In this document: one piece after another, positions 3,060 through 57,998 of the stretch
Layout of the letters: every line of letters begins with the position of its first letter
Position numbering within the stretch: position 1 is the first letter of the stretch
Source: Zootoca vivipara
Lineage: Eukaryota
DNA: 64,000 bases
Reading direction: 5' to 3'
Assembly: GCF_963506605.1 (NCBI RefSeq)
Contig: NC_083276.1
Location: 116,994,001-117,058,000, forward strand
The notes under the pieces: model-generated
The model's database searches: none
What the model saw: the letters and a program-made list of their open reading frames with translations, nothing else
What the model was told of the DNA's origin: nothing
Made by a program: the position numbers and the translations under genes

Positions 3060-3760
3060 TTGCTCATTTGGCCCTATTTAAAGGGGTTGGGGTGAAAAGA
3101 ACACCCAAGAAATCCAATTAAAGCAGCTCTGGCCAAAGAGCTATTTGAGGCATGAATATCTCCCCTAAAGCTGTAGCAATCATGTGGCATTAGACACTTC
3201 CGGAATCCTATAGCCAACTTGAAAAATCCCAGANNNNNNNNNNNNNNNNNNNNNNNNNNNNNNNNNNNNNNNNNNNNNNNNNNNNNNNNNNNNNNNNNNN
3301 NNNNNNNNNNNNNNNNNNNNNNNNNNNNNNNNNNNNNNNNNNNNNNNNNNNNNNNNNNNNNNNNNNNNNNNNNNNNNNNNNNNNNNNNNNNNNNNNNNNN
3401 NNNNNNNNNNNNNNNNNNNNNNNNNNNNNNNNNNNNNNNNNNNNNNNNNNNNNNNNNNNNNNNNNNNNNNNNNNNNNNNNNNNNNNNNNNNNNNNNNNNN
3501 NNNNNNNNNNNNNNNNNNNNNNNNNNNNNNNNNNNNNNNNNNNNNNNNNNNNNNNNNNNNNNNNNNNNNNNNNNNNNNNNNNNNNNNNNNNNNNNNNNNN
3601 NNNNNNNNNNNNNNNNNNNNNNNNNNNNNNNNNNNNNNNNNNNNNNNNNNNNNNNNNNNNNNNNNNNNNNNNNNNNNNNNNNNNNNNNNNNNNNNNNNNN
3701 NNNNNNNNNNNGATATTCTGCAAGAGGAGGGCTGCGAAAAATCCTCCTGCGCTCAGAGGC
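3060..3760. promoter_or_regulatory. Probable I12a intergenic enhancer (mostly N, 3234-3711)
   Basis: Inferred from position (DLX2 side of I12b) and from non-repetitive flanks around a 478-nt N-run. The core cannot be read. Confidence 0.5.
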
Positions 3761-4235
3761 TGAGTTTCGGTTCCCAGGGACCTCAACCCCACATTTTTTG
3801 GGTGTCCTTTGGATATTTATTCTTATGGCGAGGCTCTTCCCCCCCACCAGCCCCCCAACTTAACCCCGACCCTTCTATTCACCTATTCCCCTCAACTTTT
3901 TCCTACCAACGTGCTGGTTCCAACCTTTTGCAATAAAGCAAAAGCGAATGGGGATTGCAGGAAAATTGACACCGAAGGTAAGTTAAGTGTGGTTGAGGGG
4001 CGCGGCGGGACGGGACGGGACAGGGGATAACAGGGCTTCCCTCTTTTTTATTTTTTATTTATTTTCAGTTCTTTTCTTTCTCCTCTTTCCATTCTCCGCC
4101 ACTCAGCAACCTCCACTTTTATGGGAAGCATCCTGCCTCTCGACTTTCCCAGCTCCGGGATAGGAGAAAAGGCGGAGGAGCTGATGGCGCATCAACCAAT
4201 TCTTCATCCAAAACTTCTTGTCAGTTGTGTCAAGA

Positions 4236-4238
<3 letters not shown>

Positions 4239-4284
<46 letters not shown>
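4239..4284. repeat. (GT)n microsatellite
   Basis: Seen directly. Other (CA/GT)n tracts at ~8226, ~9477, ~21827, ~31387 and ~33953. Confidence 0.95.
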
Positions 4285-4285
<1 letters not shown>

Positions 4286-5199
4286 GCATGAGGACTGGTG
4301 GGGAGGAGTGGCGCGGGGAGAGAAATGGGTGCTCAGTCCCTTAAGGTTTATATAGTATACGAAGGTAAAGACGGGGAGGGCCGCGCGCTTGACTTCGAGG
4401 ACTCTGCAAGTCGTTGAATATATATATATTTATATATGTCCCGGATCCACCTTTTGGTTTGTGTCTCCGTTCTTGAAGTAAAGCTGTGTAGGTAACGAGA
4501 GAGAGGCAGTGGCTAGCCGTGGAGAACAAGCGTGACGGTGTGGAGCGCGCAGCCACCGAGTGAGGCTGACATTGGAGAAGGGTGGGGGGGGCTTCTTTTC
4601 CAACGATGTGCCCCCCACACTTTCCTTTCACCTACCTGCTTTTAATAGCAAAAAGAGGACAAGAAGTAAAGCTGAGCATAGGAACGAGGGAACCCCCCCC
4701 CCCCCGTTTCCCGTCGCCCCCGTCCTTGACTGCCATCTCTCTCTCTCTCTCTCTCTCCTTTGATCATTTGCACTGATTTAAAGAGCTTTCTCTCTTGTAA
4801 CATTTACTTGAGCACACCCAAAGTTTGCATGTGGGTAGGTGCATATGGGTTTAAGAGGGGGGGGGACTTCGCACAGCACCCCCTTCTAATAATCTGCTCA
4901 TGGTGAAAGACCATGGCTAAAACGTCTACTAGTCGAGAGTTTCCTTTTGTCATACGCGAGTGGGAAACGCGTGTGTTGCGTGTGCTGGAAAGAGAGAGAG
5001 AGAGAATGGGAAGAAGGCAGATGGATGTAATCTGGATGGGATTTATATGTTGGACTGTTTGAAAATGCAGAGATGCAGCTGGGCTTTGCTGTGGGAGACT
5101 GACAAGTCCCCAGCTATTGAGGGGGTTCTTTAATACGAAAGAGTTGTGGGTGGATATGGGGATGGGGAGGGGGAGTGAAGATTTTGTTTTTTAAGCAGG

Positions 5200-5720
5200 A
5201 CATATTAAAGAGGTATCTGTTGTTTGGCAATTTTGCTAAGTCGGTCATCATTACTTCAACACTGTGCATTTGCTAATTTTGAAGTCCGCTTTTTTTCCTC
5301 CCCCCCCCCCCCCCTTGACAGCCCGGGCTCCGCACACCTGCAGGCAATTTGCTGCGCTCCACTCTGCAGAGCAGAGAATGGAGCGAGAAGGGATGGCAGC
5401 TCTCTCGCACCTATTTTATTTCTTTCTGTCTCTCTCTCTCCTCCCTTCTTCNNNNNNNNNNNNNNNNNNNNNNNNNNNNNNNNNNNNNNNNNNNNNNNNN
5501 NNNNNNNNNNNNNNNNNNNNNNNNNNNNNNNNNNNNNNNNNNNNNNNNNNNNNNNNNNNNNNNNNNNNNNNNNNNNNNNNNNNNNNNNNNNNNNNNNNNN
5601 NNNNNNNNNNNNNNNNNNNNNNNNNNNNNNNNNNNNNNNNNNNNNNNNNNNNNNNNNNNNNNNNNNNNNNNNNNNNNNNNNNNNNNNNNNNNNNNNNNNN
5701 NNNNNNNNNNNNNNNNNNNN
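5200..5720. promoter_or_regulatory. I12b Dlx1/2 intergenic forebrain enhancer (core hidden in N-run 5452-5720)
   Basis: 5200-5420 matches, block by block, the reverse complement of human I12b as I recall it (TATCTGTTGTTTGGCAATTTTGCTAAG, CTGTGCATTTGCTAATTT, CACCTGCA.GCAATTTGC, GATGGCAGCTC, CGCACCTATTT). Position 3' of DLX1 is as expected. Confidence 0.8.
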
Positions 5721-5926
5721 GGGAGAGGGGGAAAAAGTCATTTTGATTATCATTAAGCTGTGTGTAACCTATTGCAGAAGTGTTGAGAAATGAGGGGCTG
5801 GCGCTTCCTTTCCTCAACCCCCACCCCACCCCAAAATGGGGAAAATACATATCCCTAAATTGCACATTTTGTATTTTGTATTTTGCCATGGGCAGATTTT
5901 TCCGGGAGGGTTCTGTGTTTGCAGGG

Positions 5927-5993
<67 letters not shown>

Positions 5994-6400
5994 GTGGGGA
6001 AGGCGTAATATTCGAAATCAGTTTTTAATCATTGTAATGAGGTATTGTTTCAATAGAAGCCCTTTCGGATGATTCAGAATTTAATTAATATCCTCATTAT
6101 GAACATCTTCGAATCAGATATTTGATGAACTGCTTGTCAGTAACAAGGCAGAATTAATTAGGTCTGTGGTGAGATTAACATTTGCAAATGTACAGTTATA
6201 ATAGGCGCTAACTCGAGCCCGCCTTCGTTGGGAGAAAACTAATAATTTCTCCATTTGGACGGTTTAGCAAGACCTTTATTGAATTAAGAGGAGCCGCACA
6301 GCAACGGAGAGCAACCCAGCCAGAAGTTTCCTTGACCATCGCGGTTGGATTTCGGTTTTGATTTCCGAATAATTCTTTCTCGCATTCAGACAGAGAGCCG
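5721..6400. promoter_or_regulatory. Candidate conserved non-coding element next to I12b
   Basis: Unique AT-rich sequence with many homeodomain TAAT/ATTA cores (TTAATTAA, GAATTAATTAGG) within GC/SSR-rich surroundings; interrupted by a (GA)n tract. Confidence 0.55.
5929..5991. repeat. (GA)n microsatellite
   Basis: Seen directly. Confidence 0.95.
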
Positions 6401-8223
6401 CTGGATTCGGGCGGCGTCAGGCTTTCTCGGGGAGGGGAAGTGAGGGGGGGGCGCAAAGCGGCCACCACCGGCTCCGGCATGTGTGGTTCAAGCGTCTCTG
6501 CTAACCACCGGGTGGCGGCCAGATTTTGTCTTCGGGGGAGATCTAGGAAACCAGTCAATGAGGTTTCAGGAAGCCCCTCCGGGCTACTTCTCTCTTTCTT
6601 CCCCGGGGAATCCGGCGGGCTGGGATTCTCCCACGGCCTGGCCTGTCTGTCTCTCCTCCAAGCTGCTTCAGTTCCTTCTGCTGCCTTCCCACCCCCGTCC
6701 GTCCACCCCCACCCCCACACACCCCACATACATACATACACACACAAAATCACACACCGTACTATGGTGCCTTAGCTCCCTCCCGCTTTCCATCTCTCTC
6801 CCAAGTACATTAGCCAGAGAGGGCCGCATCATTTGATCACTCATCGCCCAGAATTGAAAAATGGGTGCGTGTCAAAACAAAAATCGATACAATTTATCAT
6901 TCGCTTCCTCCTCCAGCAGCCTCCCGGAAACCTACTCCCCACCCCCGCAACACCCACCCACTTTTGCCTCCTCCTCTCCCCACCCACTCACCCCATAGGG
7001 AACTTGCAAGCGGATGCAATCCTCAGCTTGGAGGAAATGGGGGTGGGGGGAGCGAAAGGGAGAAGGAACTTCCTTCTCTGTCTCAGAAATACAGAACAAA
7101 GATGATCTTGCCAAGGCAGCGGGAAAGCCCTGGCTCTGGGATCTCGGTCCTGATCCCAGCGGTGATCTATCTAGTTTTAATCTTTCTTTTGCTTGCTTTC
7201 CTCCGCCCGCTTGGTAGGACGTACTGAACTTTGCCGGCGGAATTTGCCCGAGTGACGCATCTCACTTGCCATTTGCCCCGAGGAACGAAACCACGACAGG
7301 CCCCACGTGCCGCTCTGCAAGCTCCTTTTCAGTTCCCTGCAAGGGAAATATGGAAAGTGTCCTCGTTCTGGCTCTGGGGTGATGGATCTGAAGGCTTATG
7401 TGGGTTGGTTGTTTATTCATTTTTAATAATAACTAAGCTGAGGATGTGGGTGGGCGGGGGTCGAGGGACATAATGCATCCTTCAGAGACTTTGGTGGTGT
7501 GCCTCAGAAATATCTCTTGAATTTTGTCTTGTCCTGATGAGCAAAGAAGGAACCAACACACACAGTCAGAGTTGTTCTTCTCCAAAAGCGGTGGCGCTTT
7601 GATCCTCCAAAACCATGTGTGCAAGGCGCAAAAGCATGTGCAAGGCGCCCAAAGTTTCCCCCTCCCCTGATCTCTCACACACAGAGAGACCACCCATAGA
7701 GAAAGATAGTAAAAACAACCCCCAAACGATGATCCACCGCTTTCTTCAATCCCTCGCCTTCCTCGCTGCCCTCCACCCCAAACTCAGTTTTATTTTATTG
7801 CCCAGGTGCATTTGTAGGGGCGAAACTAGGCTTTCTGTTACCCAGGTCAAAGACCCAGTTTGGCATCCCCCGTGCATGCTTGCCTACATATACACATACA
7901 TATGCGATGCCCATAGAAATCTTTTTTTCCCCCTCTCCTTTCTTCCTAGGCATCAGCTTCCCAATAACTGCTGTCCAGACAGATGCGCGTCTCCGAGGGG
8001 AAGGCTCCGCTGGAGCCGGTCCCAGCCTCCTGGATCCTTAATAGAGAGAGGCGGCATCATGTTTTAGGGCTGGAAACGGGTGTAGCTGCCAATTTCCTCA
8101 ACTGGAAAGTTTGAGCTTGACGAAACGGTGCAGGAGGTAGTGACAAGTCTTTGGGTTTGTTTGGGGGATGAATAATAATAAAAAAGGAGAGCTAAAACTC
8201 AGGGCAGCAAGAGGGGCGAAAAG

Positions 8224-8270
<47 letters not shown>

Positions 8271-9014
8271 TGTGTGCTCCAAGCTGTCCCTCAGGATTTC
8301 TCTTCCTTTTGAAATCCCGCGGGACCTCAGCTCCTAGACCTCAGCGCCTCTGAAACCAGCGGCAAGCCCGTCATTAATATTTTTTTTTTTTGCCCATTTT
8401 CCTCTAAGAATGCAACCGCAGACCTTTATCACTAGCTACCGGTAGCACCTGTTCTGCCTCCTGAGCCTACCGCAAGTGCGCAGTCACTGCATTCCCCCTC
8501 CTGCCCCCGCAAAGGGAAAGGCGACCGGGTAGGATGGAATTAAGCATAGCACCTTGCCTGGAAAGCTGCCTGGGAGAAAGTCTCTCCATATTTCAGCCCT
8601 TAGCTCGCTGAAGAGTTATTTATAGAAGCAACCATAAATTCAAGATCGTAGGGGGAGTTAGGGAACAAGCAAAGGAAAAGCGTTGTAGTAGATGGCAGCC
8701 CAGATTAGGTCTGGGCTTCTTCTCACCCATGCACACTGTTGCACTGAGTCGCCCCTGCGCCCTGCGCTTCCATTTGCAAGAGCCTTCCTTAATGTCCTGC
8801 AGAAGATCCGGCCCGGCTTCTCACTTCACAACTGAACGTTTCCCTCGCGCATTTAAGGTTTTTTGTTTCCACCCGACCACCGTAGCGCATCCAGAATGGA
8901 TGCAGGAACCAGGATCCTGAGCGCACAACTCACCCTTGATTTCATTTTACACACGCGCGCGCGATGCCTCGTTAGGGACTGAGCATCGTTAGGGACGATC
9001 TTTAGATCGTGCGG

Positions 9015-9472: not shown

Positions 9473-9510
<38 letters not shown>

Positions 9511-11113
9511 GTGACAGGCAAAATCTCCAAGAATCTCAGCTTTCACAATGCATCATATATTGTAGCCACACGCCCGATTTAAATAAAAAATAAAAAACAA
9601 TGCGGGGGGAGAGAACGGACCCGAAACAATTAAAAAGCTTTTACAGGACAACATTATTAATTTTTTATATTAAAAAATGTATAGCTACTAAAGGTTGCAC
9701 TTGAAAATAGGCGCAGGGAGATTTCACATTGATAATTCCGTGGGGTTAAGAATTTGAGATTAAAGGGAGCTGCCTGAACACGGGCATGGTTACTTCGCTA
9801 AAAGCAAAGAAAACAACGCCTTGGCCTGACTCTGCTTCCAAAGCAAACTACCATGCTTTATTTCTCTACTCCCCCCCCTTCTGATTCTCTCTCTGTTATA
9901 ATTAACTTGAGATGTGCGCTAAACGGGTAAGGATTAGATCTCTCCATAAATGTGTGTATGAAACCCGAATGCTCCCGTTCCCGTCTCCCCCACACCTTCC
10001 CGAAACAGAAAAGCGAATGCACACAGATTAAAATTAAAATTAAACTGAGCGCCTGAGCATCTCCTCCCTATTACCCGCAAGTGTGCGAGGTCGTCGACTT
10101 TGAAACAAACAGCATGAAAACAACGTCACTTCTGCAAACCAGATCTGCCCGTAAGTTTATTATTATTATTTTTATAGAAAAATGCTTAGGACTCTCATAG
10201 TGGTAGATTTCAAAGTCAATAAATAATAATAATTTAAACAACAAAAAAATCCCCCCTTTCCCCTTCGACAGAAAAAAATATATATACACCGAGGACTAAC
10301 AACGAACATTATGGGAGGTGGCGNNNNNNNNNNNNNNNNNNNNNNNNNNNNNNNNNNNNNNNNNNNNNNNNNNNNNNNNNNNNNNNNNNNNNNNNNNNNN
10401 NNNNNNNNNNNNNNNNNNNNNNNNNNNNNNNNNNNNNNNNNNNNNNNNNNNTCGGAGACCAGAAAACTCGGGATGAAGGGAATGACCTACATTTCATTAG
10501 AACAGACATGAGAGACAGACAAGAAAGAGGACATAGCTTCCTCCCCGCCCCTCTTCCTGGTACAAACAGATTATTCTTCTCATATTTTTTTTTCCTGATT
10601 GTCCAACCAAGCCGAGGGTCGGTTTTTCCGGCGCTGCTGGCAGGCTGTTGTCCGGCTGCTCTCGAGCCGATCCGTGGCTGCCGCGTCAGCTGTCTGCACT
10701 GGGAACCAGCCCCGCGTCGCATCTGTGCCTGCCTCGCCCGGCAGCTCAGCAGCGGCTGCGCCCAGGAGGACTTTCCCAAAGACGGTCCTCGCGTGGCGTG
10801 TCCTTTTTTCCTTTTCCTTTTTTGTTTTGTTTTTTGGCTGGCGCCTCTTCCCACGTTGCCTTTTCTCAGGCTCTTTGGGTCGTGCGTGCGCTTTCCCCAA
10901 ACTAACCACAGTGTTCGAGCGCGTGTTTGTGTGGGGTGTTTAGTAATTTTTCCCCCTTTTTCTTTTAAGTATTCTGGTTGATGCCGACGGAGAGATCGGC
11001 TTGTTGATTCAACTTTTTCTTTCTTTCTTATTATTATTTCAAAAAAACAAAAAAACGAACGAAACGAGCGAAATACCAAACTCAAAAGAAACTGCCCTCC
11101 AAAAAAACCCCAA
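9015..11113 (-). other. DLX1: Probable DLX1 3'UTR with candidate poly(A) signal at 9015-9020
   Basis: Follows the stop codon and contains AT-rich blocks. Minus-strand AATAAA at 9015-9020 and Pumilio-type TGTATATA at 10281-10288. The true end is uncertain. Confidence 0.45.
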
Positions 11114-11368
11114 TCACATCAGCTGAGGCTGCTGCATAGTTTCCTGGTGGGCCGAAGGGTACCAAGACGTGTAGCTGGGGATGTAAGTGGCCGGGGTCCC
11201 AGCGGAGGTCTTACCCGACGTCGAGGTGGTGTTCCAAACTGGGGGCACTGGGGGGGAACTGGCAGACAGGGACCTGCCGTTGGCCAGAGCGCTGCTTTCC
11301 AAAGCGGCCCCTCCTTGCTTCATCAGTTTCTTGAATTTGGAGCGCTTGTTTTGGAACCAGATCTTGAC
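11114..11368 (-). CDS. DLX1: DLX1 coding exon 3 (255 nt incl. stop)
   Basis: Acceptor GACAG|GTC. Encodes VKIWFQNKRSKFKKLMKQGG...SWYPSAHQETMQQPQLM*. Exon sum 313+200+255=768 nt = 255 aa + stop. Confidence 0.98.
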   Translation of the reverse strand, partial: VKIWFQNKRSKFKKLMKQGGAALESSALANGRSLSASSPPVPPVWNTTSTSGKTSAGTPATYIPSYTSWYPSAHQETMQQPQLM

Positions 11369-11862
11369 CTGTCCCCAAAGGGGGGTTGGGGAGAGAGAGA
11401 GAAACGAAAGTTGAAGGCGCCAGCAGAGAAGACAAGCCAGACAGAATCCGGGAGGCAACAGGAAAAAGGGCACCCAGTGGCCAAGAGGGTCTCTGCCCGG
11501 AGAAATCCGGTGCCAGGCCCAAGGCCACGCTTGGTTGCGATCCCCCACCCCAAGGGAGCGACGCATGATTGATACCAACGCGCGTCTTTCGCTCAGGGGA
11601 CCAAATTTCCGGAAATGGAGGCGCACTACAAGTGTGCATGCACACTAAAGCTCATACATATGACAAACTTAGTTGGTCTCTAAGGTGCTACTGGAAGGAT
11701 TTTGTTTGTTTGTTTGTTTCTCCCCTTTCTTTAGGGGAGCGAAGCGGCCCTCCAAAACCACACTCAGTAAACAAAACAAAAAAAGCTCCCCCAAAACAAA
11801 TGCGTAAATGCATCAACAGCGAAGTGTGTGGGTCATTCGAAGAGCCACAATGAAAGTTTATT

Positions 11863-11894
<32 letters not shown>

Positions 11895-13053
11895 TATATG
11901 CACGGATTGAGAACAGGAAGGCCTGCTGATTTCCATCTGAGGCAACATCCGATTTTGTTTGTTGGTTTTTTAAGGCCTAGTAATCCTAAAGACAATCCCA
12001 ACTACAGTTGCTGAAATCACGCCGCCATCCTTAATTAAAGTTCCTGCGACCTGCGCCACAAGGAAGGTGGGACCGCCTTGCTCCAAGAGAAGCAAGTTTT
12101 AGGAGGGTGATACATCACAGAGGCAAAAGGCCTCGGATCTCCCAGGCTCCAAAGCCCAAGAGGGACCCAAGTCTAGACAAATGAAATATTTTATTTGGAG
12201 CAATTTAAACAAGAAGAATAAGAAAAAATCGCATTTTGCAACGGGGATCAGTCTATTTGGGTGACAAGTACAATTCCATCCCCACCCCCCTGTACATCTC
12301 TCTCAGATAGACAAAGGTGAAGATTTGATGGTGGTTGAGAAGATAAGAGCGCGCGCCTTTGTATGGGATTCGAGGGAGAGAGGAGCCTTCTTTTAAACCA
12401 AACTAAATAGGGTCCTCCAAGACTTGAAAGACGGGCAATTAAACCGCTGGAGGAGATTGTGATATCCTTCATAAATGGAGATCTAATCACCTACATCTTC
12501 AAGACATCACCTGGGCACCTTTGTTTGTTTGTTTGTTGGAGGGGAATTAGTTCCGCTGGGTTCAGGAAGACCGCGTTAGCCAGGCATAGGAAAGGGGCAG
12601 CTACTATCACTGGGGACACCATTCTCCCAGAAATTGCCCTTAAAAAGAGGCCTGCCACTCTCCAGTGTTGGAGATCCTTGGAATGTTAACGCGGGGGTTG
12701 GAGAGAGAGAGATCGACTTATTTTATGGCAAGCTCTTGAAGAAACGTCAATGAGATTGGGGGTTTCCTAAATCTTAAATGCGCTTCGGAAGGTAGGAGAG
12801 CGAACATGGTCCTGGTGGTGGGGCAGCAGCGGAGCAGAAGAAGGTCTTTTTCGACTGATGCTTCGGAGGGGCTCTCTGCCCCACCACCTACCCTGCCCAG
12901 CTTCCCCCGGGACCTTGCCTCTTGGGCCTCGGGACTCGGGATGTATGGCGAGCCGAGAGGGCCGCGGGCAGGCGAGGCCGCCAGGAAGACGCTCGGGCTG
13001 CAGGGATGGGGCTGAGAGGGCGACGGATGCCAGGTGCTGCTGGCGCTGCCTAC

Positions 13054-13253
13054 CTGGGTCTGGGTGAGCCCCAAGGAGGCGGCCAGCTCGGCTCTCTCGG
13101 GCAAAGCCAGGTACTGAGTCTGCTGGAACCTCCGGTTCAAAGCCTGCAGCTGCAAACTGGAGTAAATAGTCCGGGGCTTTCGGATTTTTTTCCCTTTGCC
13201 GTTGAAGCGCACTTCTCCGCCTTCCACCACGGTGCTTTTCTCCGTCTCGGCCC
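13054..13253 (-). CDS. DLX1: DLX1 coding exon 2 (200 nt), N-terminal part of homeodomain
   Basis: Acceptor TTGCAG|GG and donor CAG|GTAGGC. Encodes [67 protein letters not shown]. Confidence 0.98.
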
Positions 13254-27122: not shown

Positions 27123-27320
27123 CAGGGGTAGCTAATGGAAAGGCCTTCTTACGGAGATGTCAAACTTCCGGGTGGCCGTGGAAGTAAGATCCTATCCCAT
27201 GACCAACAAAGTAGGGGGGGGGATACTCAGAAATCAGATGTTATGCACCACAAAACTCCCATAATCCCTGGCTACTGATTATGTTGGCTGTGGCTGATGG
27301 GAACTGGAGTCTGTTTGGAG
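27123..27320. mobile_element. Old MITE fragment interrupted by a copy of part of METAP1D exon 7
   Basis: CAGGGGTAGCTAATG...CAGATGTT...AACTCCCATAATCCCTG; related fragments at ~25199, ~26900 and ~27800. Confidence 0.6.
27146..27217 (-). pseudogene. Partial duplicate (pseudo-exon) of METAP1D exon 7
   Basis: 27161-27217 equals 28041-28097 with 1 mismatch in 57 nt. The alignment extends through the GTAAGAA donor. The copy has TGG>TGA and no acceptor. Confidence 0.85.
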
Positions 27321-28032: not shown

Positions 28033-28130
28033 CATGATGCCAAACTTCCGGGTGGCCGTGGAAGTAAGATCCTATCCCATGCCCAACAAAGTAGGGGCAA
28101 ACTCGTAAATCATTCTGACGGGCTATATGG
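28033..28130 (-). CDS. METAP1D: METAP1D exon 7 (98 nt)
   Basis: TTAAAG|C...G|GTAAGA. Encodes HIARQNDLRVCPYFVGHGIGSYFHGHPEVWHH, with the GHGIG metal-ligand motif. Confidence 0.96.
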
Positions 28131-29910: not shown

Positions 29911-30869
29911 TATTTTTTTAAATAGAAAAGGTCAATATTTTCCCAGAGTAGGACAGAATTTGCACAGGCTGGCAATTTGCTAACGAGCTTCAGTTTCCAC
30001 AGCATTAAGATACAAGGTACAACCCACAAAAAACCCAGTTCAGTGACGGTGGTTTGAGGGATCTTTTATATTGGGTACCTGGGTGAACTTATATTGTCCA
30101 TTATAACAGGCTGGGAGTAAAATGAGTAATGAATGGCAAATGCCGTTAGTTCAAGAGAAGCATCTGAAATAAGCATGGCTCTTGGAAGTGAAACATACGG
30201 CATCAAAGGGTATTTAATCTGGCCATAGAACATAGATGAAATGTTGCAGTACATTCTCACCTTGTAACAGGAGTGCTTCATTTCAGAGTTCAAGCCAGAC
30301 CAATTGACTCCTTGCTCCATTATATTGTGTTTTTAGGGGAAGGGGTAGAGGAGGACTATTTTGCTATTTTTAAAAAATGATTTTTAAATAGTTCTGCAAA
30401 ACTCAAGGATCCCCAGAGCTTGCTGCTGTCCCCTTTTCATTTCAGTGTTTGGGCTGCAGTGCCTAATCAGTGTGAAATATATTTTCACATTTCCCTATTT
30501 TTATAAACAATATAAAATATTTTATATAAACAATATTTTATAAAAAAACAAAACCGTGTTTATGGAAGACAATCTTACTCGGCTACGAGTGATCGCCAAA
30601 GAAGAAGAAGAAGAAATTTTTATACATGGCAGATGGCTGACGTGTTTTGCGGAACAGAGACGGAGGTCTTCAGTCAGAAGACTCTTTAGGCACTCTTCCT
30701 GGAATTTAAGAACACCACCACCACTTAAAAGGGAATCACATGGAATGAAAGTGGATTGGATGAAAGTTTAAGGTCCCACTTGCTCCAATTCCTGTTCCAC
30801 AAAAGCCTCACTTAGGTGCATTACATCACCTTAGAGACAACAAATGGCTGTTGTAGTTTTCTACAACAT

Positions 30870-31226
30870 GGAGGTGGGTGGTGCTGTGGTCTAAACCACT
30901 GAGCCTCTTGGGCCTGCCGATCGGAAGGTTGGCAGTTCAAATCTGCACAACGGCGTGAGCTCCCAGCTTCTGCCAACCTAGCAATTCGAGAGCATGCCAG
31001 TGCAAGTAGATAAATGGGTACCACTGTGGCAGGAAGGTAAACTGTGTTTCTGTGTGCTCTGGTTTCCGTCACGGTGTTCCGTTGTGCCAGTAGCGGTTTA
31101 GTCATGCTGGCCACATGTCTGTGGACGAATGCCGGCTCCCTCGGCCTGAAAGCAAGATGAGCGCCACAACCCCATAGTCGCTTTTGACTGGACATAACCA
31201 TCCAGGGGTCCTTTATCTTTACCTTT
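30870..31226 (+). mobile_element. Sauria SINE
   Basis: tRNA-derived head (TGGTGCTGTGG..GGCAGTTCAAATC), conserved body GCAAGTAGATAAAT.GGTACC and (ACCTTT)-type tail. Confidence 0.9.
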
Positions 31227-31383
31227 TGCTCTTGAAATGAGCACAGTAATATGTCAGTGTGTATATGGAAGGCATGAGAGACTGCATTCATAAATTCTGC
31301 CACGTATATACTTTTGATGTGGAAATGTTGCAATGACCTCTCTTAACAGAGCCATCATCCTGTGTTATTTGCAGTGGCATGTG

Positions 31384-36302: not shown

Positions 36303-36505
36303 TTAACCAAGCCTTGGGCTGATTGACACCCGATACCCTTTTAAATGTGTTGTGGAAGGGGGGATTACTGGTTTGTTTCTGTTCTTATTTTTATCATGTA
36401 TTTTGTGTTTTTCATATTGGAATTTTATGTTGTGAACCGCCCTTAGATCTACAGGTATAGGGCGGTATACTACTACTACTACTGCTACTGCTACTACTAC
36501 TACTA
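36303..36505 (+). mobile_element. L2-type LINE 3' end
   Basis: GTGAACCGCCC...AGGGCGGTAT stem-loop followed by a (TAC)n tail. Confidence 0.65.
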
Positions 36506-36578
36506 ATTTTGCAACCAACAGAATAGGTTGCAGTGTGTGCATGGTTGTGGGCTGTGTAGGATATCCATGGGAGTTTAA

Positions 36579-36959
36579 GAGGAATGGGTGGCACTGCGGT
36601 CTAAACCCCTGAGCCCCTTGGGCTTGCCGATCGGAAGGTCGGAGGTTCAAATCCCCGTGGACGGAGTGAGCTCCTGTTGCTCTGCCCCAGCTCCTGCCAA
36701 CCTAGAAGTTCGAAAGCACGCCAGCGCGAGTAGATAAACAGATACAGCTGCAGCGGGAAGGTAAACGGCATTTCCGTGCGCTCTGGCACTTCTCATAGTC
36801 CTCCGTGTACCAGTAGCGGTTTAGTCATGCTGGCCACATGACCCGGAAAGCTGTCTGTAGACAAACACCAGCTCCCTCAGCCTGAAAAGCAAGATGAAAG
36901 CCACATCCCATAGTCGCCTTTGACTGGACCTAGCCGTCCGGGGGTCATTTACCTTTACC
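36579..36959 (+). mobile_element. Sauria SINE
   Basis: Same family as 30870-31226; tail TTTACCTTTACC. Confidence 0.9.
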
Positions 36960-38849: not shown

Positions 38850-40243
38850 TATTACATATTACATTAGACATAGTCTAATCCTACTGTGCCTGTACTAAAG
38901 GCAGAAAATTCCCACCAGCTTCTACAGAGCCACAATCCTTCTTTATTCTCCGACATGGCGTCTGAAGGAATTTCTGGGCATGTTGCCTGTGCACAAGTGT
39001 ATATGTGGTGGGGGGAGAAAACAAGGGCTATTGAGCCTATGGGAGTCCACTTGCAGGCACCGTGTCCGTGTTGGCACTGGATCCTTCCCCATCTATGGGA
39101 GCATCCAAACAAGTTGTCCTATTAGCGTGAAGTCAGGGCTTACTCTTCTTTCTGCCCTTGTGGTGTGTGGCCCAAATCTGCTCTGGAGTATTGGGTGGTG
39201 GTGGTAACACAGAACAGATGTGTGCAGGTGGAGGAATATGGGAAGAGAGGGCAAGACAGACCCCTGGCATAGGTAGATATTTCTTGTACAGTACTAAGGA
39301 GACAACTTAGTACAATTCAATCGGTGGAATTCACCATAGTGCTAAGTGGGGTATAAGTGTAGGGAACAGTTGTGGGNNNNNNNNNNNNNNNNNNNNNNNN
39401 NNNNNNNNNNNNNNNNNNNNNNNNNNNNNNNNNNNNNNNNNNNNNNNNNNNNNNNNNNNNNNNNNNNNNNNNNNNNNNNNNNNNNNNNNNNNNNNNNNNN
39501 NNNNNNNNNNNNNNNNNNNNNNNNNNNNNNNNNNNNNNNNNNNNNNNNNNNNNCACGCAATAAGACTCCCCACCCACCCACTACACCTGTTCTTAGTCCC
39601 CCCCCTCAAACTCCCAGAACATATTTAGAGGTATGGGGGGCTTGGGGGAGAGGAGAAGGGGCAACCTCTTTTGCACGAGTGGACCTCGTTCCGCTCACAC
39701 AGCAATGTAACTGAATCCCAACCTTTATAAACACACCATAATCAATCTTCAAACCACTCCTGGCTACTGTGCTCGTAAATTGCCTACCATCCATTTCATG
39801 GCAGAAAATTCATTATCGTGCCTCTTTTGAGAACTATGGTCAGATAGAAAAGTTGCCTTAATTAAGCAGAATCAGGGTCAGCAGCTCTTTGTCTACTGTA
39901 ACCGCACAAGACAAAAAATGATGAGCCCAAATTGCAGGTAAAAAGATTTAAACCGGACATGAATAAAGAGCCTTATGTCCATAAGAGTAGTGGTTGCAGC
40001 AGCAGAGGTTGGCTTAAAGGTGTGGCGATATCTCCATCCACACAGATCTTAAAGCCAAGGTTGAATAGTTGTCCCAGGAGGGTTGTGTGAGCAAAGTCAT
40101 TGAGTTGTTTCCTGCTTCATATCATACTGGAGTTCTGGGCACGATGCTATTTGAAATAAGATGCTTTGATATGATATCGTAACTTCTGATAAGGAGTTGT
40201 ACTTCGTAACTCGGCAGGATGTAGACCTGCTGATGGACCAGTC

Positions 40244-45279: not shown

Positions 45280-46620
45280 GGGGGGGGTCTGTTATTCTGG
45301 ATGTGATTGTGACTACGGACCAATCCAAATTAATTTGCTTTTCAACTGAGCTTTGCATACGCATTTACATGCGGTGAAACACTGACCTCTGTATCAACAT
45401 ATTGAGAGGAGGGGAAAGGAAAAAAGGAGAGAGAGAGAGAGAGAGAGAGGCCAATGTCACTTTCAATTCCGCTCTTCTTCTCTTTATCCTTAAAAAAAAA
45501 AATTCAGCTAGACTTAATGCAGTGAATCTAATGAAATGCATTACCCTGCAAGGAGATTTTACCAGATTTCTTCCAAGTGAATGCTGCTACTTTTGCTAGC
45601 ACTGGCTGGAGTTCACCTGCGTGTTTGTGTGGCGTGTGGCTCTCTTTTTGTAAAGAGTTAAGTCGTACACAAAAAAAAGGGGAACAAAGGNNNNNNNNNN
45701 NNNNNNNNNNNNNNNNNNNNNNNNNNNNNNNNNNNNNNNNNNNNNNNNNNNNNNNNNNNNNNNNNNNNNNNNNNNNNNNNNNNNNNNNNNNNNNNNNNNN
45801 NNNNNNNNNNNNNNNNNNNNNNNNNNNNNNNNNNNNNNNNNNNNNNNNNNNNNNNNNNNNNNGCCACGGACAGTACATTTATGTTAGCGGTAAAAGGCCT
45901 AGATGCTCTTTCCATAGCAGAGCTAATTATTCCCACTGTGACCTTCCTGATCTACCCTATTCCTAGTACATCTCATCTNNNNNNNNNNNNNNNNNNNNNN
46001 NNNNNNNNNNNNNNNNNNNNNNNNNNNNNNNNNNNNNNNNNNNNNNNNNNNNNNNNNNNNNNNNNNNNNNNNNNNNNNNNNNNNNNNNNNNNNNNNNNNN
46101 NNNNNNNNNNNNNNNNNNNNNNNNNNNNNNNNNNNNNNNNNNNNNNNNNNNGGGAAAAAAGGAACGAGAGCCACAAAGGAAAATTACTTTAACAAGAAAG
46201 TACAGAGAGTAAAAATGGAAGAAGAGACAAAAAAAATGGGGGGTGGGGGGGTGGAAGAGGGGGGGAAGTAAGCAGGGAGGGGGAAAAAAGTTTAAAAAAT
46301 AGATCTGGTAGGGAGGAATAGCAAGACAGGGAGAACAACAGCAATGNNNNNNNNNNNNNNNNNNNNNNNNNNNNNNNNNNNNNNNNNNNNNNNNNNNNNN
46401 NNNNNNNNNNNNNNNNNNNNNNNNNNNNNNNNNNNNNNNNNNNNNNNNNNNNNNNNNNNNNNNNNNNNNNNNNNNNNNNNNNNNNNNNNNNNNNNNNNNN
46501 NNNNNNNNNNNNNNNNNNNNNNNNNNNNNNNNNNNNNNNNNNNNNNNNNNNGCTTGAATAAGAATCTCGTCTTCTGTGCCCCCTTCGACTCGAGAATAAA
46601 TTTTGTTAAAATGCAAGAGC
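45280..46620. promoter_or_regulatory. Probable URE2 Dlx1/2 enhancer region in METAP1D intron 6 (three N-runs)
   Basis: URE2 lies in a Metap1d intron upstream of Dlx1 in mammals. Here three N-runs with TAAT-rich unique flanks lie 1.2-2.1 kb 3' of exon 6. Positional inference only. Confidence 0.5.
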
Positions 46621-47797
46621 ACCACCAGTAAATTTGTTGAACCCTAGGTGTTCAAAAATATGGAGTTGCATCCATCGACTCATCCCATTTGCAAAAATAA
46701 AACTACATTTTGAATTCACTTCTATTACATTCATGGACAGTAAGATAGTGAGATATGCATTAAATTTCTTTTCCCAGTAGGGGTCTGATTCAACATTTCC
46801 TATGAAAGAACAGATAGACACTATCCTTTTTCCCCAGGCTAGTTAGCCTATAATTTAAAACTGTCAAAAACACAATTTTATACAAAGTCTTCAATAAAAG
46901 CTTCTCGGATATAACCCAAAGTGGTTTTACTAAAGTTTGATTCAGACTCTGTTACAATATTTTTAAAGCTATAAATACATCAAACTGATATTTTCCTGCT
47001 CTCTTTTCTTATTTCTCTTAAAGTATTTGAAGATTCATACAGAGGGGGTGGGGGTGGGGGAGGGAGGGAGGGAAGACAGCCTCTTTTCAGGATTCTGAGC
47101 AATGCGTGTTTTTGTAGGCATCGAGATTCATGCAATTTCTTCCCGATAGCATTAACATATTAATGAAAGGGCATTAAGGCGCAACATTTAAAAGAAAAAA
47201 AAAAGTGTGTGCAAATAGCAAAAGGATCAAATAATACGTTTTAATAAACCAGAACATGATGGACCATTGGTTTTATCATATTGTTCCAGGATCAAAGCCT
47301 AGGGACCTAAAGGGAGCTCCCTTGCATTTAAATCTGCATTTTGTTATAAAAGGGGAAGGGTTCATAGTACTGAATAATTCTGACAACCTTTAGCAGTTCT
47401 TTGTGGCATTGATAAAAAAAAGTCCTTGCTGGCATTATTCATCAGGCAACAGACAGGTGAACACAACGCTCCCCCCATCTCCAATATGATTTTATTAAGG
47501 TAGTCAAAGCAGCTACCAATCATGATTCATACCTGCAAAGGTAAGGAGCCAGCCAGTCTTAGAAATGTATTTGGCTTTTCCTACAGGGCTATATCCACTG
47601 ACCCTGTCTAGTGTAATTCACTTTTAAAAATCCTTTCTTACCCAGGGAACAACATTACAGCCTGGCAGTTCACATAGTGATATCAGACTGAAATGATGGT
47701 TCTGAATCATAAAACATGTCATCAGCTTTATACCAAACCACCAATAACCTTTGTCCCGCTTGCCAGCCTTCCCTTTACTTGTCACTATAAGGCTTAC

Positions 47798-47961
47798 CTG
47801 ATTGTGTTTCCAATTACAGAGAAAGGAGCCCCAGGTCTGCAAGCTGCAATTGCTTCATCTCTACATTTCCTGGCAACCTCCACTAACTTTTGACCAGACT
47901 CATCCACGTTGCCCACTAGAATTGTTTCGGAAGTGTCACCATGGTAGCCATTGAAGTACAC
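47798..47961 (-). CDS. METAP1D: METAP1D exon 6 (164 nt)
   Basis: CTTAG|GTG...AG|GTAAGC. Encodes VYFNGYHGDTSETILVGNVDESGQKLVEVARKCRDEAIAACRPGAPFSVIGNTI(S). Not captured by the ORF track. Confidence 0.96.
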
Positions 47962-49496
47962 CTAAGCACATGCAGAAATGTAAAAGAGGCATTTGCATTT
48001 TGCAGTCAGGTGCCAGGACTTTCTTGGGTTTCTTTCGCAATGCATTTAAGATGCAAATAAAATAAAACAATTGAAATGCAGCAAGTGGAACAGAAAATTG
48101 GGTGGTGGAAGGGAGTTAGTTCTCGTCCGTCTGTTAGCTGTGATCACTCATGATAATGAGAAGGCCGTCACTGTCAAACATCATCTCGGGCGCAGGTTTT
48201 CTTCACAAACACAAGCTAGGAAATTAAAGGCTGTGAATTTCAGGCTACGGTCCTGCACAGAATTAGGCTATTCAAATCTCATTGGTCAACGGGATTTTAG
48301 TGGCCTTAACAGTGATAAGTAAACTAATGAGGAACATGGAAGCCAAGGCTGGAAAAACTAAAAACAATGTGTCACAAATTATCCTCATGAGAACGAAATG
48401 CAAAGGTTGGCACAATCTGTTGGATGAGTCAGAATTGGGATTTAGGCCTAAAGACCATCCTTCTGTGGACACACTGAGAGGCTACTTATTAGAAATAAAA
48501 TTAAATCTCATCTTGCGCTGAACATCCTCTCCCCTTCTTTCCTGCAACAGATTCGATCATGTAGGGCATGAGATGAGATATGGATGAGACCGTAAGGCCA
48601 ACATAGGATTCTTGAGGTTTACAATGTATGTCACATCTATAGATTAGACAGCTCCATATCTGGAATTTAGGATTTACATAAATCCTATATTTATGCAAAC
48701 ATCTATAACTTCAGCAGCTGGGACATCTTGAGTTGCCACATTTGAAAACAGTTCTGTTACAGTGCTTTTTATTTTATTTTTTGCATCTTACTGGGTTTTC
48801 AAAAAGAAAATAAGGCAGAAGACTAGCAATGGCGGACGTGTACACAGTATAAATGAAATGCTCTCTGGGTGCCTCCAAACTGTCTGTATTTTTCAGGAGA
48901 GATTCATGTGCTTTCTAGAACTTCAGGTTTGCACAATTAAAGTGGACTTACGAGCTCTGTTGCCCTAGTGCAACAAACCCGATTTTTTTTGCAGTTTGGA
49001 ATGTGATGGGGAAATGCATTGAAAAGTGTGGGAATGAATGGATGTTTTAACAGAAAGCCATGTAAATACCCCACAAGCGAATCAGGATGAATGCCCATTG
49101 CTATATAACAGCCCCAATAACAAAACAGAATGGATCTACCATATATTTTGGAAAGTTGCTATTTTTCTCTGTTTGCTCTGCGGCTTAAGGTATCGTAATC
49201 TAATTTTGTATGATGGTTCCCAAGTTCAAGGAGCAGGTTTTCGTTTATGAATCAAAATGGCAGGCTGCCCCTTTCAGAACTGCACTGATTTTAAAACTGC
49301 ACTGGTGGTTTTTGTTTGTTTGTTTCCTAGAATTTCTGAGCAATGCTGGGCACAAGGCTAATACTGCTCAATAAAGACCAGACATAGCCTAACCACTGTG
49401 TAACCTTTGTGGTAGCAGATCAGGATAAATGCTGATTAAACTGGTTATCTGGAGGTACATCAGAGAAACAAAAGTCTTCGCTTTGTCACTATATGG

Positions 49497-49728: not shown

Positions 49729-49832
49729 CTACATGGTATTACGCAGCTCGGATTTTATCAGCAGCTAACATTTATTAAATAGTTTCCAACTAGAGTACTT
49801 TACGGTATAGATTTCTCAGCTGACAACATCTC

Positions 49833-50208
49833 TGTTATGTACTGAGCTGAATCCTAGAACAATAGGATTCAGAATCAGCGGGAGCTACCCAATCCAACTC
49901 CAGGTGGAAGTGAATCCGCAACCTGATTGGCCTGCTGGAGCAGCCAATCAGGCGGCGGGCAGAAGTGAATCTGCTACCTGATTGGCCTGTAGGAGCAGCC
50001 AATCAGGCTGCAGGCAAAAGTCAATCCACAATATAATTGGCCCACAGGTGTAGCCCTGAAGTAGCCAATCACGCAAGGCCCATTGTGTAAATAATGTATA
50101 TAAGCAGATGGTTTTGGGAAAAGAGCCATTCGTCTTCTCTTCTCCTCCTTGATGACTATGAGCTGAATAAAGAGCATGAAATTCACTCTTGACTCCGAGT
50201 ATATTTCA
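49833..50208 (+). mobile_element. Solo LTR (376 bp)
   Basis: TG...CA termini, 5-bp TSD ATCTC, repeated CCAAT units, TATATAA at 50097, AATAAA at 50166. Confidence 0.88.
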
Positions 50209-50675: not shown

Positions 50676-50721
50676 CATAACCTCCAACATTTCTCTGATG
50701 AAAATAGGGACATCCTATTCA

Positions 50722-50778
<57 letters not shown>

Positions 50779-53062: not shown

Positions 53063-53315
53063 CAGGGGTCAGCAAACTTTCTCAGCAGGGGGCCGGCCCA
53101 CTGTCCCTCAGACCTTGTGGGGGGCCGGACTATATTTTGGGGGGAAAACAATGAACAGATTCCTATGCCCCACAAATAACCCAGAGATGCATTTTAAATA
53201 AAAGGACACATTCTACTCATGTAAAAACATGCCGATTCCCGGACCGTCCGCGGGCTGGATTTAGAAGGCGATTGGGCCAGATCCGGCCCCTGGGCCTTAG
53301 TTTGCCTACTCCAGG
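53063..53315. mobile_element. hAT MITE
   Basis: Starts CAGGGGTCAGCAAACT; perfect 8-bp TSD GTCTTGAA. Confidence 0.85.
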
Positions 53316-53374
53316 GTCTTGAATGATACAGGATGCTGCCTTAGAAGCAGTAATAGCTCAAGCCATTTTTAAAA

Positions 53375-53785
53375 ATTATTATTATTATTATTATTAGAAT
53401 TTATACACCGCCCTATACCTGGGGGTCTTGGGGCGGTTCATAGAATAAAATCAAGATATAAAACCACAAAATACATAATAAAAACAAAAACAACCCAATG
53501 CCCCCCCCACAAAAAAAAACACTTTTTAAAAGGGCATAGGATGTAAATCAGAACAACCAAAGGCCTGGTTAAAAAGGAACGTTTCTGCCTGGCACCTAAA
53601 GATGTATAATGAAGGCGCCAGGCAAACTTTCCTGGGAAGAGCATTCCGCAGAGGGGGAGCCACTGCAGAGAAGGCCCCATTTTCCTGTTGCCACCCTCTG
53701 GAGGGCCTCTAAAGATGATCTCAGGGTCTGGGTAGGTTCATATGGAAAGAAGCAGTTCTTGAGGTATTGCGGTCCTGAGCAATTT
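53375..53785 (-). mobile_element. L2-type LINE 3' end
   Basis: (ATT)n tail next to the ACCGCCC...GGGCGGT stem-loop, followed by a typical L2 3' region. Confidence 0.7.
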
Positions 53786-53828
53786 ATTTGCACCATTATA
53801 TGCATAAAATCAGGCTCTAGGGCTCTAG

Positions 53829-54191
53829 CAGACCTTTCAAGTGTCCCTACTTTCCAGGGACAGTCCCGGATTTACAGAAGTTGTCTCAGTTTCTGATTTG
53901 ATCCCAGAATGCCCCACTTTTCCTTAGGACATCCCTGTTTTTGTTGAAAATTGTTGGGGGGGGGGGTATTATAGGACGTCCCTATTTTCTTCAGAAAAAC
54001 GTTGAAGGATATGGACTTATGTGACTCCCAAGCCAAGGAGATAAGTAACTATACCAGCTTTAGAAGACGTCGGAAGGCAGCAATGTATAGGGATTTTTTT
54101 TAAAAAAATGTCATTGTGTTTTTATATACGTTGGAAGCCACCAAGAGTGGCTGAAGCAAGCCAGTCAGATGGGCAGGGTATAAATAATACA

Positions 54192-54232
<41 letters not shown>

Positions 54233-54278
54233 GAAATAGGACATTTCAATTTTCATCATAGAAATGTTGGTGGGTATG
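53829..54278. mobile_element. Composite non-autonomous element (inverted copy)
   Basis: Colinear with the reverse complement of 50676-51082. Confidence 0.7.
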
Positions 54279-55189
54279 CTTCAGGAGGCAATATCGTTAG
54301 AGGCCAGGATCCAAGGAACCATGCGATTGAGGCTGTGTCCAAGACTGTTTTGATGTACACTTTCTAGGAGCCTTTAACGTAGGCTTACTACTACTACTGA
54401 AGGAGCTACACTAGTGGCGTTCCACTTTGGGGAATGAGTTACTCTGGGAGCCACGACAGGCAAGAACGTTATTTTCTCGAAGTCTTTTTTAATGCTTGTA
54501 CTCTATTCTATTCTATTCTATTGCATCTGCATTGTAAGCCACCATGTGGAGATAACTGGACACACACAAAAAAGCAGAATATGCACCTTTAATGTGGATA
54601 AATAAATGGATGTAGCAAAGTGTTCTGAAACAGAAGGGACTTTCAAAATTACTTTTGTAACATGGCTCTGCTGGTTTCCTTGTTTCCTTGCTTGCTTGTA
54701 AAAAAGGGGGCGGGGGTTAAACAGTCCCATGGGAAGTGTCCAAGCTATAGTTCTGTGGGTTCCAGACAGCAGCAAAGATCCATAAAGGTATTGTAGGTTG
54801 TGTGACTTCTCAAACATTGGAAGGAATCAAACACAACTGCAGAAGAGCAAAGAAAAAAGCAGCTGCAAAAATTGGTGCTCTGCAGTGCCTCAGGGGGAAA
54901 ATCAAGGCACATTTAATAGTTATTTGGAAAATTTATATAATGCTTAATTGCAGTTCATCTCTAAGCAATGAACAAGTCACTCAATCCAATGCAATAAAGG
55001 TTAGAAAAAACACCCCATGTAAAGTTTGTTTGTGGCTTCTCTAGTATGCAACTTTTGTTGTATCGGTAAAAGTTTTCAAAAGCGAGTAATCGCAACATAA
55101 GGAGTCCATCAAAAGAAACTGGAAACCATAGTCTTGACAGCTATTTTTGTGCATGTTGACTCTGACTTTGAGCAGAAGACCCCTTATGC

Positions 55190-55325
55190 CAGGCATCCCC
55201 AAACTTCAACCCTCCAGATGTTTTGGCCTACAATTCCCATCTTCCCCGACCACTGGTCCTGTTAGCTAGGGATCATGGGAGTTGTAGGCCAAAACATCTG
55301 GAGGGCTGCAGTTTGGGGATGCCTG
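55190..55325. mobile_element. Palindromic 136-bp hAT MITE (same family, opposite orientation)
   Basis: Same TIRs; TSD (C/T)CTTATGC. Confidence 0.9.
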
Positions 55326-55705
55326 TCTTATGCCATCTCACAGGCTGCTTGTGAAATTGCTCTCCAGTTGGAACTAGGGGTTGGGAGCCAGTGGTCTAGG
55401 AGCTGAATGTAGCCCCCAGACCTCTTTGTCCAGCCCTCAGAACTTCCCCCAGGCTATGCCCTTCACAATTGTAATCCCTCTTACCTAGGAGTAAGTCCCA
55501 TTGAATGCAACGGGACTAACCTATGAGTAGACATGGCTAGGACTGCAAGTGCATACAGGAATGCCCTGATGGATAATTTTGGTTTAGAAAGGTGGCTTTA
55601 GGAAGGCAGGATTTTGAGAAAAGACATTGTGTGGAAAGGAGAATACTTAAGCTTTTCTTCACTTCCTATTTTTCCATGCTAAATCTTCCCACTAAGCTGT
55701 TCCAT

Positions 55706-56075
55706 GGGACGCGAATGGCGCTGTGGTCTAAACTACTGAGCCACTTGGGCTTGCCGATCAGAAGGTCGGTGGTTTGAATCCCTGCAACGGGGTGAGCTCC
55801 CGTTGCTCGGTCCCAGCTCCTGCCAACATAGCAGTTCGAAAGCACATCAAAGTGCAAGTAGATAAATAGGTACCACTCCGGCGGGAAGGTAAACGGCGTT
55901 ACCATGCACTGCTCTGGTTTCGCGAGAAGCGGCTTAGTCATGCTGGCCACATGACCCGGAAAAACTGTCTGCGGACAAACGTCGGCTCCCTCAGCCAGTA
56001 AAGCGAGATGAGCACCGCAACCCCAGAGTTGTTCTCGACTGGACTTAACTGTCGGGGTCCCTTACCTTTACCTTT
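55706..56075 (+). mobile_element. Sauria SINE, full length
   Basis: GGGACGCG head, (ACCTTT)n tail, TSD TAAGCTGT(T/G)CCAT. Confidence 0.93.
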
Positions 56076-57091
56076 TAAGCTGTGCCATGCCCACCTCATT
56101 CAATAATTCTAGATGCATGTTTACTCAGTTGATGCATCATTTCATATTTTGGCATCTAACATGTAGCTTGCCTGTGACCGTCAACATAGAAGACTTGAGG
56201 ATTAGGCCTATACATGTATTTTGAACAGCAAGTGTCACTTGTAGTTAAATGGGTGACATTACAATGGTTAGTTTAGGGTTGTGCAGAATGCAATGCGTTA
56301 TATTTTATTAAAACCCCCACAAACTAATACTTATTACAATATAAAGATCAAAATATCTAAATCCACATCTATCTAAACTATTATCAAACATGAACTGATT
56401 TCAGAGGTTAAAGTGTGCCAACGTTAAATTAAATAAATTTTACGGGAAGGAAGCAAGGGATGGTGTCCAACTAAGTCTGAGTAGAACCATTAAAATTAAT
56501 GGACTTAAGTTAATTATATGAGTCTAACCTGAGTATGGCTAATGTTCAATATCATCATAGTAATGATCACTGCAGAATTTGGAAACTCTGAATGGTTATG
56601 CAATTTTTCCTTGGGCATTGCAAAATCTGCCTAACTTAATGGGTGATCCATAAGGCAAAAATGACAAAAATAAAAAAAATCCTCAAAGGTGCATAATGGA
56701 CTGCAAACATGACAGAGGCACCACAGATGGAATAAAGGTGAAATCACTGTTAGCATCAAGGAAGTACCCGTTGTTCCAAAATTTACAATTACCGGTAAAC
56801 TTGAAGTTTCCAAAAATTCAGGAAGTTTAAAAACATACATGTTATTTTAAAAGTTTGAAATTTAGGACTTACATGCATAATAAAGATATAATAGCCAAAA
56901 TTAATTTAATGAGTTGTAAAGGAAAGGAGGTTATGAAATATTGACAAAACCCAATTATTTTCTCTTTTGATAACTGCACATATTTCTATTTATGCTTTGA
57001 GCATATTCTGGTTCTTACAAGGTTCATTTTCAAACCAAGACTCATACCACAAAAATGGAACGTCCCTATTTAGATCAATGGCTATATTGGA

Positions 57092-57119
57092 TATATATCT
57101 ATATCTATATCTATCTATC

Positions 57120-57169
<50 letters not shown>

Positions 57170-57188
57170 ATCTATACACACACACACA
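57092..57188. repeat. (TATC)n tetranucleotide repeat followed by (CA)n
   Basis: Seen directly. Confidence 0.95.
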
Positions 57189-57998
57189 GTGGGATCCACA
57201 ACTCAGATAAGTGAAAGGATTGGGTTTAAAACTTAAGTCTCAAGGGGAAACCAAGCAATGTGCAAACCCGAAGAATTGGGCTATAAACTTAGTCTGGAGG
57301 GAAATCCAAGCATTTTGGATTAACTGAGCTGCAGAGAAAGTTGCGTATTTGTGAGTAAAGGGTTCAGGGCTCTTATGCCACAAATGGAACACAATACTAC
57401 CTTCAGGGATTTTAATAAATGTNNNNNNNNNNNNNNNNNNNNNNNNNNNNNNNNNNNNNNNNNNNNNNNNNNNNNNNNNNNNNNNNNNNNNNNNNNNNNN
57501 NNNNNNNNNNNNNNNNNNNNNNNNNNNNNNNNNNNNNNNNNNNNNNNNNNNNNNNNNNNNNNNNNNNNNNNNNNNNNNNNNNNNNNNNNNNNNNATCTCA
57601 TACATATCTGTCTTCAGCTGCTGCCCAGTACTGTGGTGNNNNNNNNNNNNNNNNNNNNNNNNNNNNNNNNNNNNNNNNNNNNNNNNNNNNNNNNNNNNNN
57701 NNNNNNNNNNNNNNNNNNNNNNNNNNNNNNNNNNNNNNNNNNNNNNNNNNNNNNNNNNNNNNNNNNNNNNNNNNNNNNNNNNNNNNNNNNNNNNAAACAC
57801 AGAGTGTGTGTGTGTGGGGGTGTGTGTGTGTGAAACAAAAGAGGAAACCAGCTGCTTGGCTTGGATGTAAAACGGCACGTTTATCCCATGTTACGCTACA
57901 TTTGCAATCTACTATTCTTCCTGTTGCTACTAGAAAATCTGTAAGTTGATCAAAGGCTATTAAAAAAAAACAACCTCCAAAAAACACGGATTACTCAC

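What the first reader, a model, noticed from the sequence alone, without database searches (positions are those of the whole stretch)
3234..57794. N-runs appear to have selectively erased the locus's ultraconserved enhancers
Seen: nine N-runs of irregular small size (478, 269, 128, 177, 172, 173, 205, 172, 156 nt at 3234, 5452, 10324, 39377, 45691, 45979, 46347, 57423, 57639). Most have unique, non-repetitive flanks; two are only 44 nt apart; meanwhile long SSRs and transposons are assembled through. The 5452-5720 run begins close to where the readable I12b homology stops, and its length fits the missing part. The others sit where I12a, URE2, URE1 and conserved 3'UTR blocks are expected. Inference: they are hard-masked segments, such as false positives of a human/mammal contamination screen. 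They would then map the most conserved elements and cause false 'enhancer loss' calls in this genome.
Basis: partly seen in the sequence, partly recalled or inferred. Interest (0 to 1): 0.75.

Follow-up and report, generated by a model that had tools for sequence, protein, structure and literature searches.

The report
Scan masks over known DLX enhancers
The nine blanks are likely masks added by this scan rather than a trait of the genome or its assembly; three lie inside the known DLX1/DLX2 enhancer URE2 and two more likely lie inside the known enhancers I12a and I12b, so the finding is ordinary.

Summary
The window holds DLX1 and exons 4-10 of a METAP1D-like gene; no run touches a coding exon. 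Three runs (45691-46551) lie inside URE2: the readable flanks match the published URE2 alignment, and two runs equal an orthologous span to the base (205 and 172, hand counts). That fits letter-for-letter masking, not gaps. Published primers place 3234-3711 in I12a and, more weakly, 5452-5720 in I12b. Four runs have no named element; URE1 could not be placed. So 'hard masks over conserved enhancers' is largely right. The claimed source is not supported: the task states that the scan itself replaced stretches of this window by N, and 110 kb of the same assembly outside the window, including the DLX5/6 cluster with an I56i anchor, hold no N. The worry about false enhancer-loss calls in the assembly therefore has no support. 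The scan reached the same reading before on other DNA (e1-10287349). Open: whether any single run is an assembly N.

The parts
3234..3711 (.). N-run (478) inside the span of the I12a (branchial-arch, 'AR') enhancer amplicon
   Evidence: human AR reverse primer at 3131-3150, 3 mismatches, 0 of 100 shuffles; amplicon 685 bp; the AR forward primer had no significant match
5452..5720 (.). N-run (269), likely inside the I12b (brain, 'BR') enhancer amplicon
   Evidence: best local matches of two I12b forward primers lie side by side at 5852-5870 and 5876-5889, each marginal (1 and 2 of 40 shuffles reach them); no match at <=3 mismatches; order and spacing agree with human coordinates
10324..10451 (.). 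N-run (128) in the likely 3'UTR of DLX1
   Evidence: 666 nt past the last DLX1 codon, before the first downstream AATAAA at 10161; conservation not tested
11114..14429 (-). DLX1 coding span: exons at about 14118-14429, 13054-13251, 11114-11368, all readable
   Evidence: Pfam Homeodomain E 1.5e-11 for exon 2; the name DLX1 rests on recall of the protein and on synteny with PMC2891724
22842..59028 (-). METAP1D-like gene, coding exons 4-10 at about 58882-59028, 57999-58040, 47800-47961, 28034-28129, 24548-24592, 23123-23200, 22845-22919, all readable
   Evidence: Pfam PF00557 hit over cut-off at window 47782-47964; exons found by short motifs and splice context; numbering counted back from the last exon, 10-exon structure recalled
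39377..39553 (.). N-run (177) in METAP1D intron 6, no named element assigned
45620..46790 (-). URE2 forebrain enhancer ortholog, readable parts at its ends and between the three N-runs
   Evidence: human URE2 primer exact (22 of 22) at 46769-46790; readable stretches match the published alignment by eye; in intron 6 as published for mouse
45691..45862 (.). N-run (172) inside URE2
   Evidence: hand count between readable anchors: 172 in mouse and chicken rows, 176 in anole row
45979..46151 (.). N-run (173) inside URE2
   Evidence: hand count anchor to anchor: 188 here, 181 anole, 174 mouse and chicken; the junction lies in a length-variable pyrimidine tract
46347..46551 (.). N-run (205) inside URE2
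   Evidence: hand count between readable anchors: 205 in anole row, 204 in chicken row
57423..57794 (.). pair of N-runs (172 and 156, 44-nt island) in METAP1D intron 5, 205 nt from exon 5; URE1 is a possible but untested identity

Best explanation
The nine N-runs are likely the scan's own letter-for-letter mask, laid over blocks that are likely the most mammal-like non-coding sequence of an ordinary DLX1/METAP1D locus. Shown: the runs exist; three lie inside URE2 and keep the orthologous length; the same assembly has no N in 110 kb elsewhere, DLX5/6 included. Inferred: that all nine, not only some, are of that origin; that likeness to mammalian DNA chose the places; that the enhancers are intact in the assembly and the animal.
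For: Task statement plus (these nine are the only N in the window, so at least some are the scan's). Length kept in URE2: 205 vs 205/204 and 172 vs 172/176 by hand count. URE2 is 96% identical between mouse and anole in the published table. Enrichment in three named enhancers. 0 N in 8 of 8 neighbouring 10-kb stretches and in 3 of 3 stretches over DLX5/6, where the human I56i primer matches exactly; PMC1310613 says three of the four intergenic Dlx elements are human-mouse-rat ultraconserved, so an assembly-wide screen would be expected to have hit that cluster too.
Against: In the window a scan N and an assembly N cannot be told apart, and the window's own place in the assembly was not examined. 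Four of nine runs have no independent anchor. The middle URE2 run differs from the published rows by 7-14 nt. Only 1 of 4 I56 primers matched, and the core of I56i was not verified. The controls cover 110 kb of 1.44 Gb.
Confidence: 0.88

Rival explanations
1. The deposited assembly itself hard-masked these blocks as false positives of a human or mammal contamination screen.
For: The same length-preserving, enhancer-centred pattern would result. PMC5017631 notes that true conservation can mimic human contamination in vertebrate assemblies.
Against: The task names the scan as a source of N in this window. No N over DLX5/6 or in 80 kb of flank in the same assembly. Three literature searches (listings, and passages of one paper) showed no report of such masking of enhancers in an assembly.
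Confidence: 0.07
2. Some runs, most plausibly among the four without a named element, are true assembly gaps that happen to share the window with scan masks.
For: 10324, 39377 and the 57423/57639 pair have no orthologous anchor here; one abuts a CA-rich tract.
Against: Same size class (128-177) as the URE2 runs; irregular sizes; a 48-sequence, 1.44-Gb assembly with a 135.7-Mb sequence and no N in 110 kb sampled.
Confidence: 0.04
3. The enhancers are really lost or broken in this lineage.
For: None; their cores cannot be read here.
Against: N is not a deletion; readable URE2 flanks and islands match the tetrapod rows closely and the spacing is kept.
Confidence: 0.01

Closest known systems
URE2 enhancer of Dlx1/Dlx2 (PMC2891724: passages, methods section 13 and supplementary file 1 seen)
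   Same: Readable flanks and islands at 45620-46790 match the published tetrapod rows; lies in intron 6 of the Metap1d-like gene, same strand as Dlx1.
   Different: About 32.4 kb upstream of the DLX1 start codon here against about 12-13 kb in mouse and human; activity not tested in this species.
I12a and I12b intergenic enhancers (PMC3695995, PMC8520905, PMC1310613: passages, Table 1 and primer file seen)
   Same: Order DLX1 - I12b - I12a - DLX2 and relative spacing agree with human coordinates; conserved lengths of 429 bp (I12a) and 318 bp (I12b) in catshark vs mouse are near the 478 and 269 runs.
   Different: Identified only by primer anchors and position; the stop-to-stop distance is about 16.2 kb here against about 12.3 kb in human (hand arithmetic).
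Earlier scan finding e1-10287349 (masked conserved element near LMO4)
   Same: Paired irregular N-runs with a short island in conserved non-coding DNA, read as blanks added by the scan.
   Different: Another genome; an unreviewed AI note, not independent evidence.

Membership tests
URE2 ortholog | Sequence homology to published URE2 | tested here: met
   exact 22-nt primer match; readable stretches match the alignment by eye
URE2 ortholog | Position in Metap1d intron 6, upstream of Dlx1 | tested here: met
   between exons at 47800-47961 and 28034-28129; exon numbers counted back from the last exon
URE2 ortholog | Forebrain enhancer activity | not testable with these tools
   shown for mouse, zebrafish and elephant shark in PMC2891724, not for this species
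I12a ortholog | Homology and position between Dlx1 and Dlx2, nearer Dlx2 than I12b | tested here: met
   1 of 2 amplicon primers anchors at 3131-3150; position fits
I12b ortholog | Homology and position between Dlx1 and I12a | tested here: inconclusive
   two forward primers give adjacent but individually marginal matches, reverse primer none; position fits
URE1 ortholog | Homology and position upstream of Dlx1 | not testable with these tools
   the defining paper is not held; only the name was seen; one search gave no coordinates in its listing
Assembly-level contamination mask | N at equally conserved elements elsewhere in the same assembly | tested here: not met
   0 N in 30 kb over DLX5/6; one locus only
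Assembly-level contamination mask | N present in the deposited record at these places | not tested
   the window's own place in the assembly was not examined
Ordinary scaffold gap | Fixed or estimated size unrelated to the true span, often at repeats | tested here: not met
   URE2 runs equal the orthologous span; no round sizes; SSRs are spelled through

The most novel reading that the evidence does not exclude
The deposited chromosome-level assembly itself carries contamination-screen masks over the cores of URE2, I12a, I12b and four further conserved blocks, so that comparative scans would wrongly call these enhancers lost; the unnamed blocks in METAP1D introns 5 and 6 would be further candidate Dlx1/2 enhancers.
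Probability: 0.07. Interest if true: 0.35.

Novelty: not a real feature. Interest (0 to 1): 0.04.

Why it matters
As biology it matters little: the locus and its enhancers are published. For the scan it is a practical note: irregular N-runs of 100-500 nt in conserved non-coding DNA of vertebrate windows are likely the scan's own blanks, and first readers will keep flagging them. Only if the deposited assembly held these N would it be a real caution for enhancer-loss studies.

Tried and rejected
Hidden coding exons under the runs: rejected, all 10 mapped coding exons in the window are readable. Avoidance of exons as evidence of selectivity: rejected, 60% of random placements do the same. Distance from DLX1 as a way to name URE2: useless, the region is about 2.5 times longer than in human; homology was used instead. 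Rfam: 0 matches at gathering score in the window. Primers without a useful match: human BR forward at <=3 mismatches, BR reverse and AR forward (12 of 40 shuffles reach them), 3 of 4 I56 primers. A search for uc.98/uc.99 with DLX1 (names recalled) found 0 papers. PMC3436827 does not mention DLX1, DLX2 or METAP1D in its main text. Three primary papers were not held under the ids tried (the id was recalled), and PMC3695995 has no readable supplement; they may hold I12a, I12b and URE1 alignments that bear on the weaker assignments.

Full report
Observation. The window holds nine N-runs at exactly the stated places and sizes, 1930 N in all and no others. None has a round gap size. The 18 flanks of 300 nt found no second match in the 174 kb held; this is not a genome-wide test. 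Simple repeats are spelled through.

Locus. The window lies on a 135.7-Mb sequence of a 1.44-Gb, 48-sequence assembly. DLX1 is on the minus strand, 14429 to 11114, in three readable exons. A convergent DLX2-type gene ends about 5.1 kb left of the window. A methionine aminopeptidase gene of the M24 family lies upstream of DLX1 on the same strand, with seven coding exons in the window, all readable. The names DLX1, DLX2 and METAP1D and the exon numbers 4-10 rest on recall of the proteins and on the synteny described in PMC2891724. By position, two runs are intergenic, one is in the likely DLX1 3'UTR, four are in METAP1D intron 6 and two in intron 5. That none touches a coding exon is not remarkable: 60% of random placements do the same.

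URE2. PMC2891724 places URE2 in the sixth intron of Metapl1 and prints an alignment of nine species. By eye, the readable sequence before, between and after the three runs at 45691-46551 matches its tetrapod rows. A human URE2 primer from PMC1310613 matches exactly at 46769-46790, with 0 of 100 shuffles giving a match. Hand counts between readable anchors: the 205-nt run spans 205 bases in the anole row and 204 in chicken; the 172-nt run spans 172 in mouse and chicken and 176 in anole; across the 173-nt run the anchor-to-anchor distance is 188 here against 181 (anole) and 174 (mouse, chicken), with a length-variable pyrimidine tract at the junction. Sizes that track the orthologous span this closely are what a letter-for-letter mask gives, not a scaffold gap. 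The published mouse-anole identity of URE2 is 0.96. The readable islands are also well conserved, so the runs mark only part of the element (40% of the amplicon span).

I12a and I12b. The human I12a ('AR') reverse primer matches at 3131-3150 with 3 mismatches (0 of 100 shuffles); its 685-bp amplicon would cover 3234-3711. The forward primer gave nothing significant. For I12b ('BR'), the human forward primer has no match at 3 mismatches or fewer. Its best local match and that of a mouse primer from PMC8520905 fall side by side at 5852-5889, each reached by 1-2 of 40 shuffles; the reverse primer gave nothing. The order and spacing fit human coordinates. So I12a is a good assignment and I12b a probable one. 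Five of nine runs and 1297 of 1930 N lie in the three amplicon spans, 4.2% of the window (P about 0.001 for 3 of 6 clusters). URE1 could not be placed, and the runs at 10324, 39377, 57423 and 57639 have no independent identity.

Who masked? The nine runs are the only N in the window, so at least some are the scan's. All nine look alike. Controls in the same assembly: 0 N in 30 kb left and 50 kb right of the window, and 0 N in 30 kb over the paralogous DLX5/6 cluster, where the human I56i primer matches exactly (the other 3 of 4 I56 primers did not match). PMC1310613 counts three of the four intergenic Dlx elements among the ultraconserved sequences, so a screen run on the assembly would be expected to have blanked that cluster too. 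It is one control locus, and the core of I56i was not verified. The window's own place in the assembly was not examined, which leaves open whether any single run is an assembly N.

Literature on the rival. Three searches were seen as listings. PMC5017631 (passages) warns that real conservation can mimic human contamination in vertebrate assemblies, but the passages seen report no case of enhancers masked for that reason. An earlier unreviewed note of this scan reached the same reading for another genome; it is not independent evidence.

Verdict. The mask is most likely the scan's (0.88), so it says nothing about this genome or its assembly, and the enhancers beneath are long known. Papers seen: PMC2891724 (passages, section 13, supplement 1 whole), PMC1310613 (passages, first part of Results, supplement 1), PMC3695995, PMC5450843, PMC8520905, PMC3436827, PMC5017631 (passages only).

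Noticed in passing
window 27146-27217 (-): A second, partial copy of METAP1D exon 7: 72 bp at 93% identity about 0.9 kb downstream in the next intron, with an in-frame stop and without the exon's 5' part; likely a small decayed local duplication.
   Followed up: partly
window 14429-46790: URE2 lies about 32.4 kb upstream of the DLX1 start codon, against about 12-13 kb in mouse and human; METAP1D intron 6 is about 19.7 kb.
   Followed up: partly
G000:C13:18619990-18686891: The third Dlx pair (likely DLX3/4) has its homeobox exons about 67 kb apart, against about 17 kb and 20 kb for the other two pairs.
   Followed up: no
window 49907-50042 and 59689-59884: Short tandem duplications of 55-bp and 95-bp units in METAP1D introns, likely parts of mobile elements; not identified.
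   Followed up: no
window 30821-31342, 36303-36701, 55666-56061: Three stretches whose translations resemble each other, likely copies of one interspersed repeat; not aligned or named.
   Followed up: no
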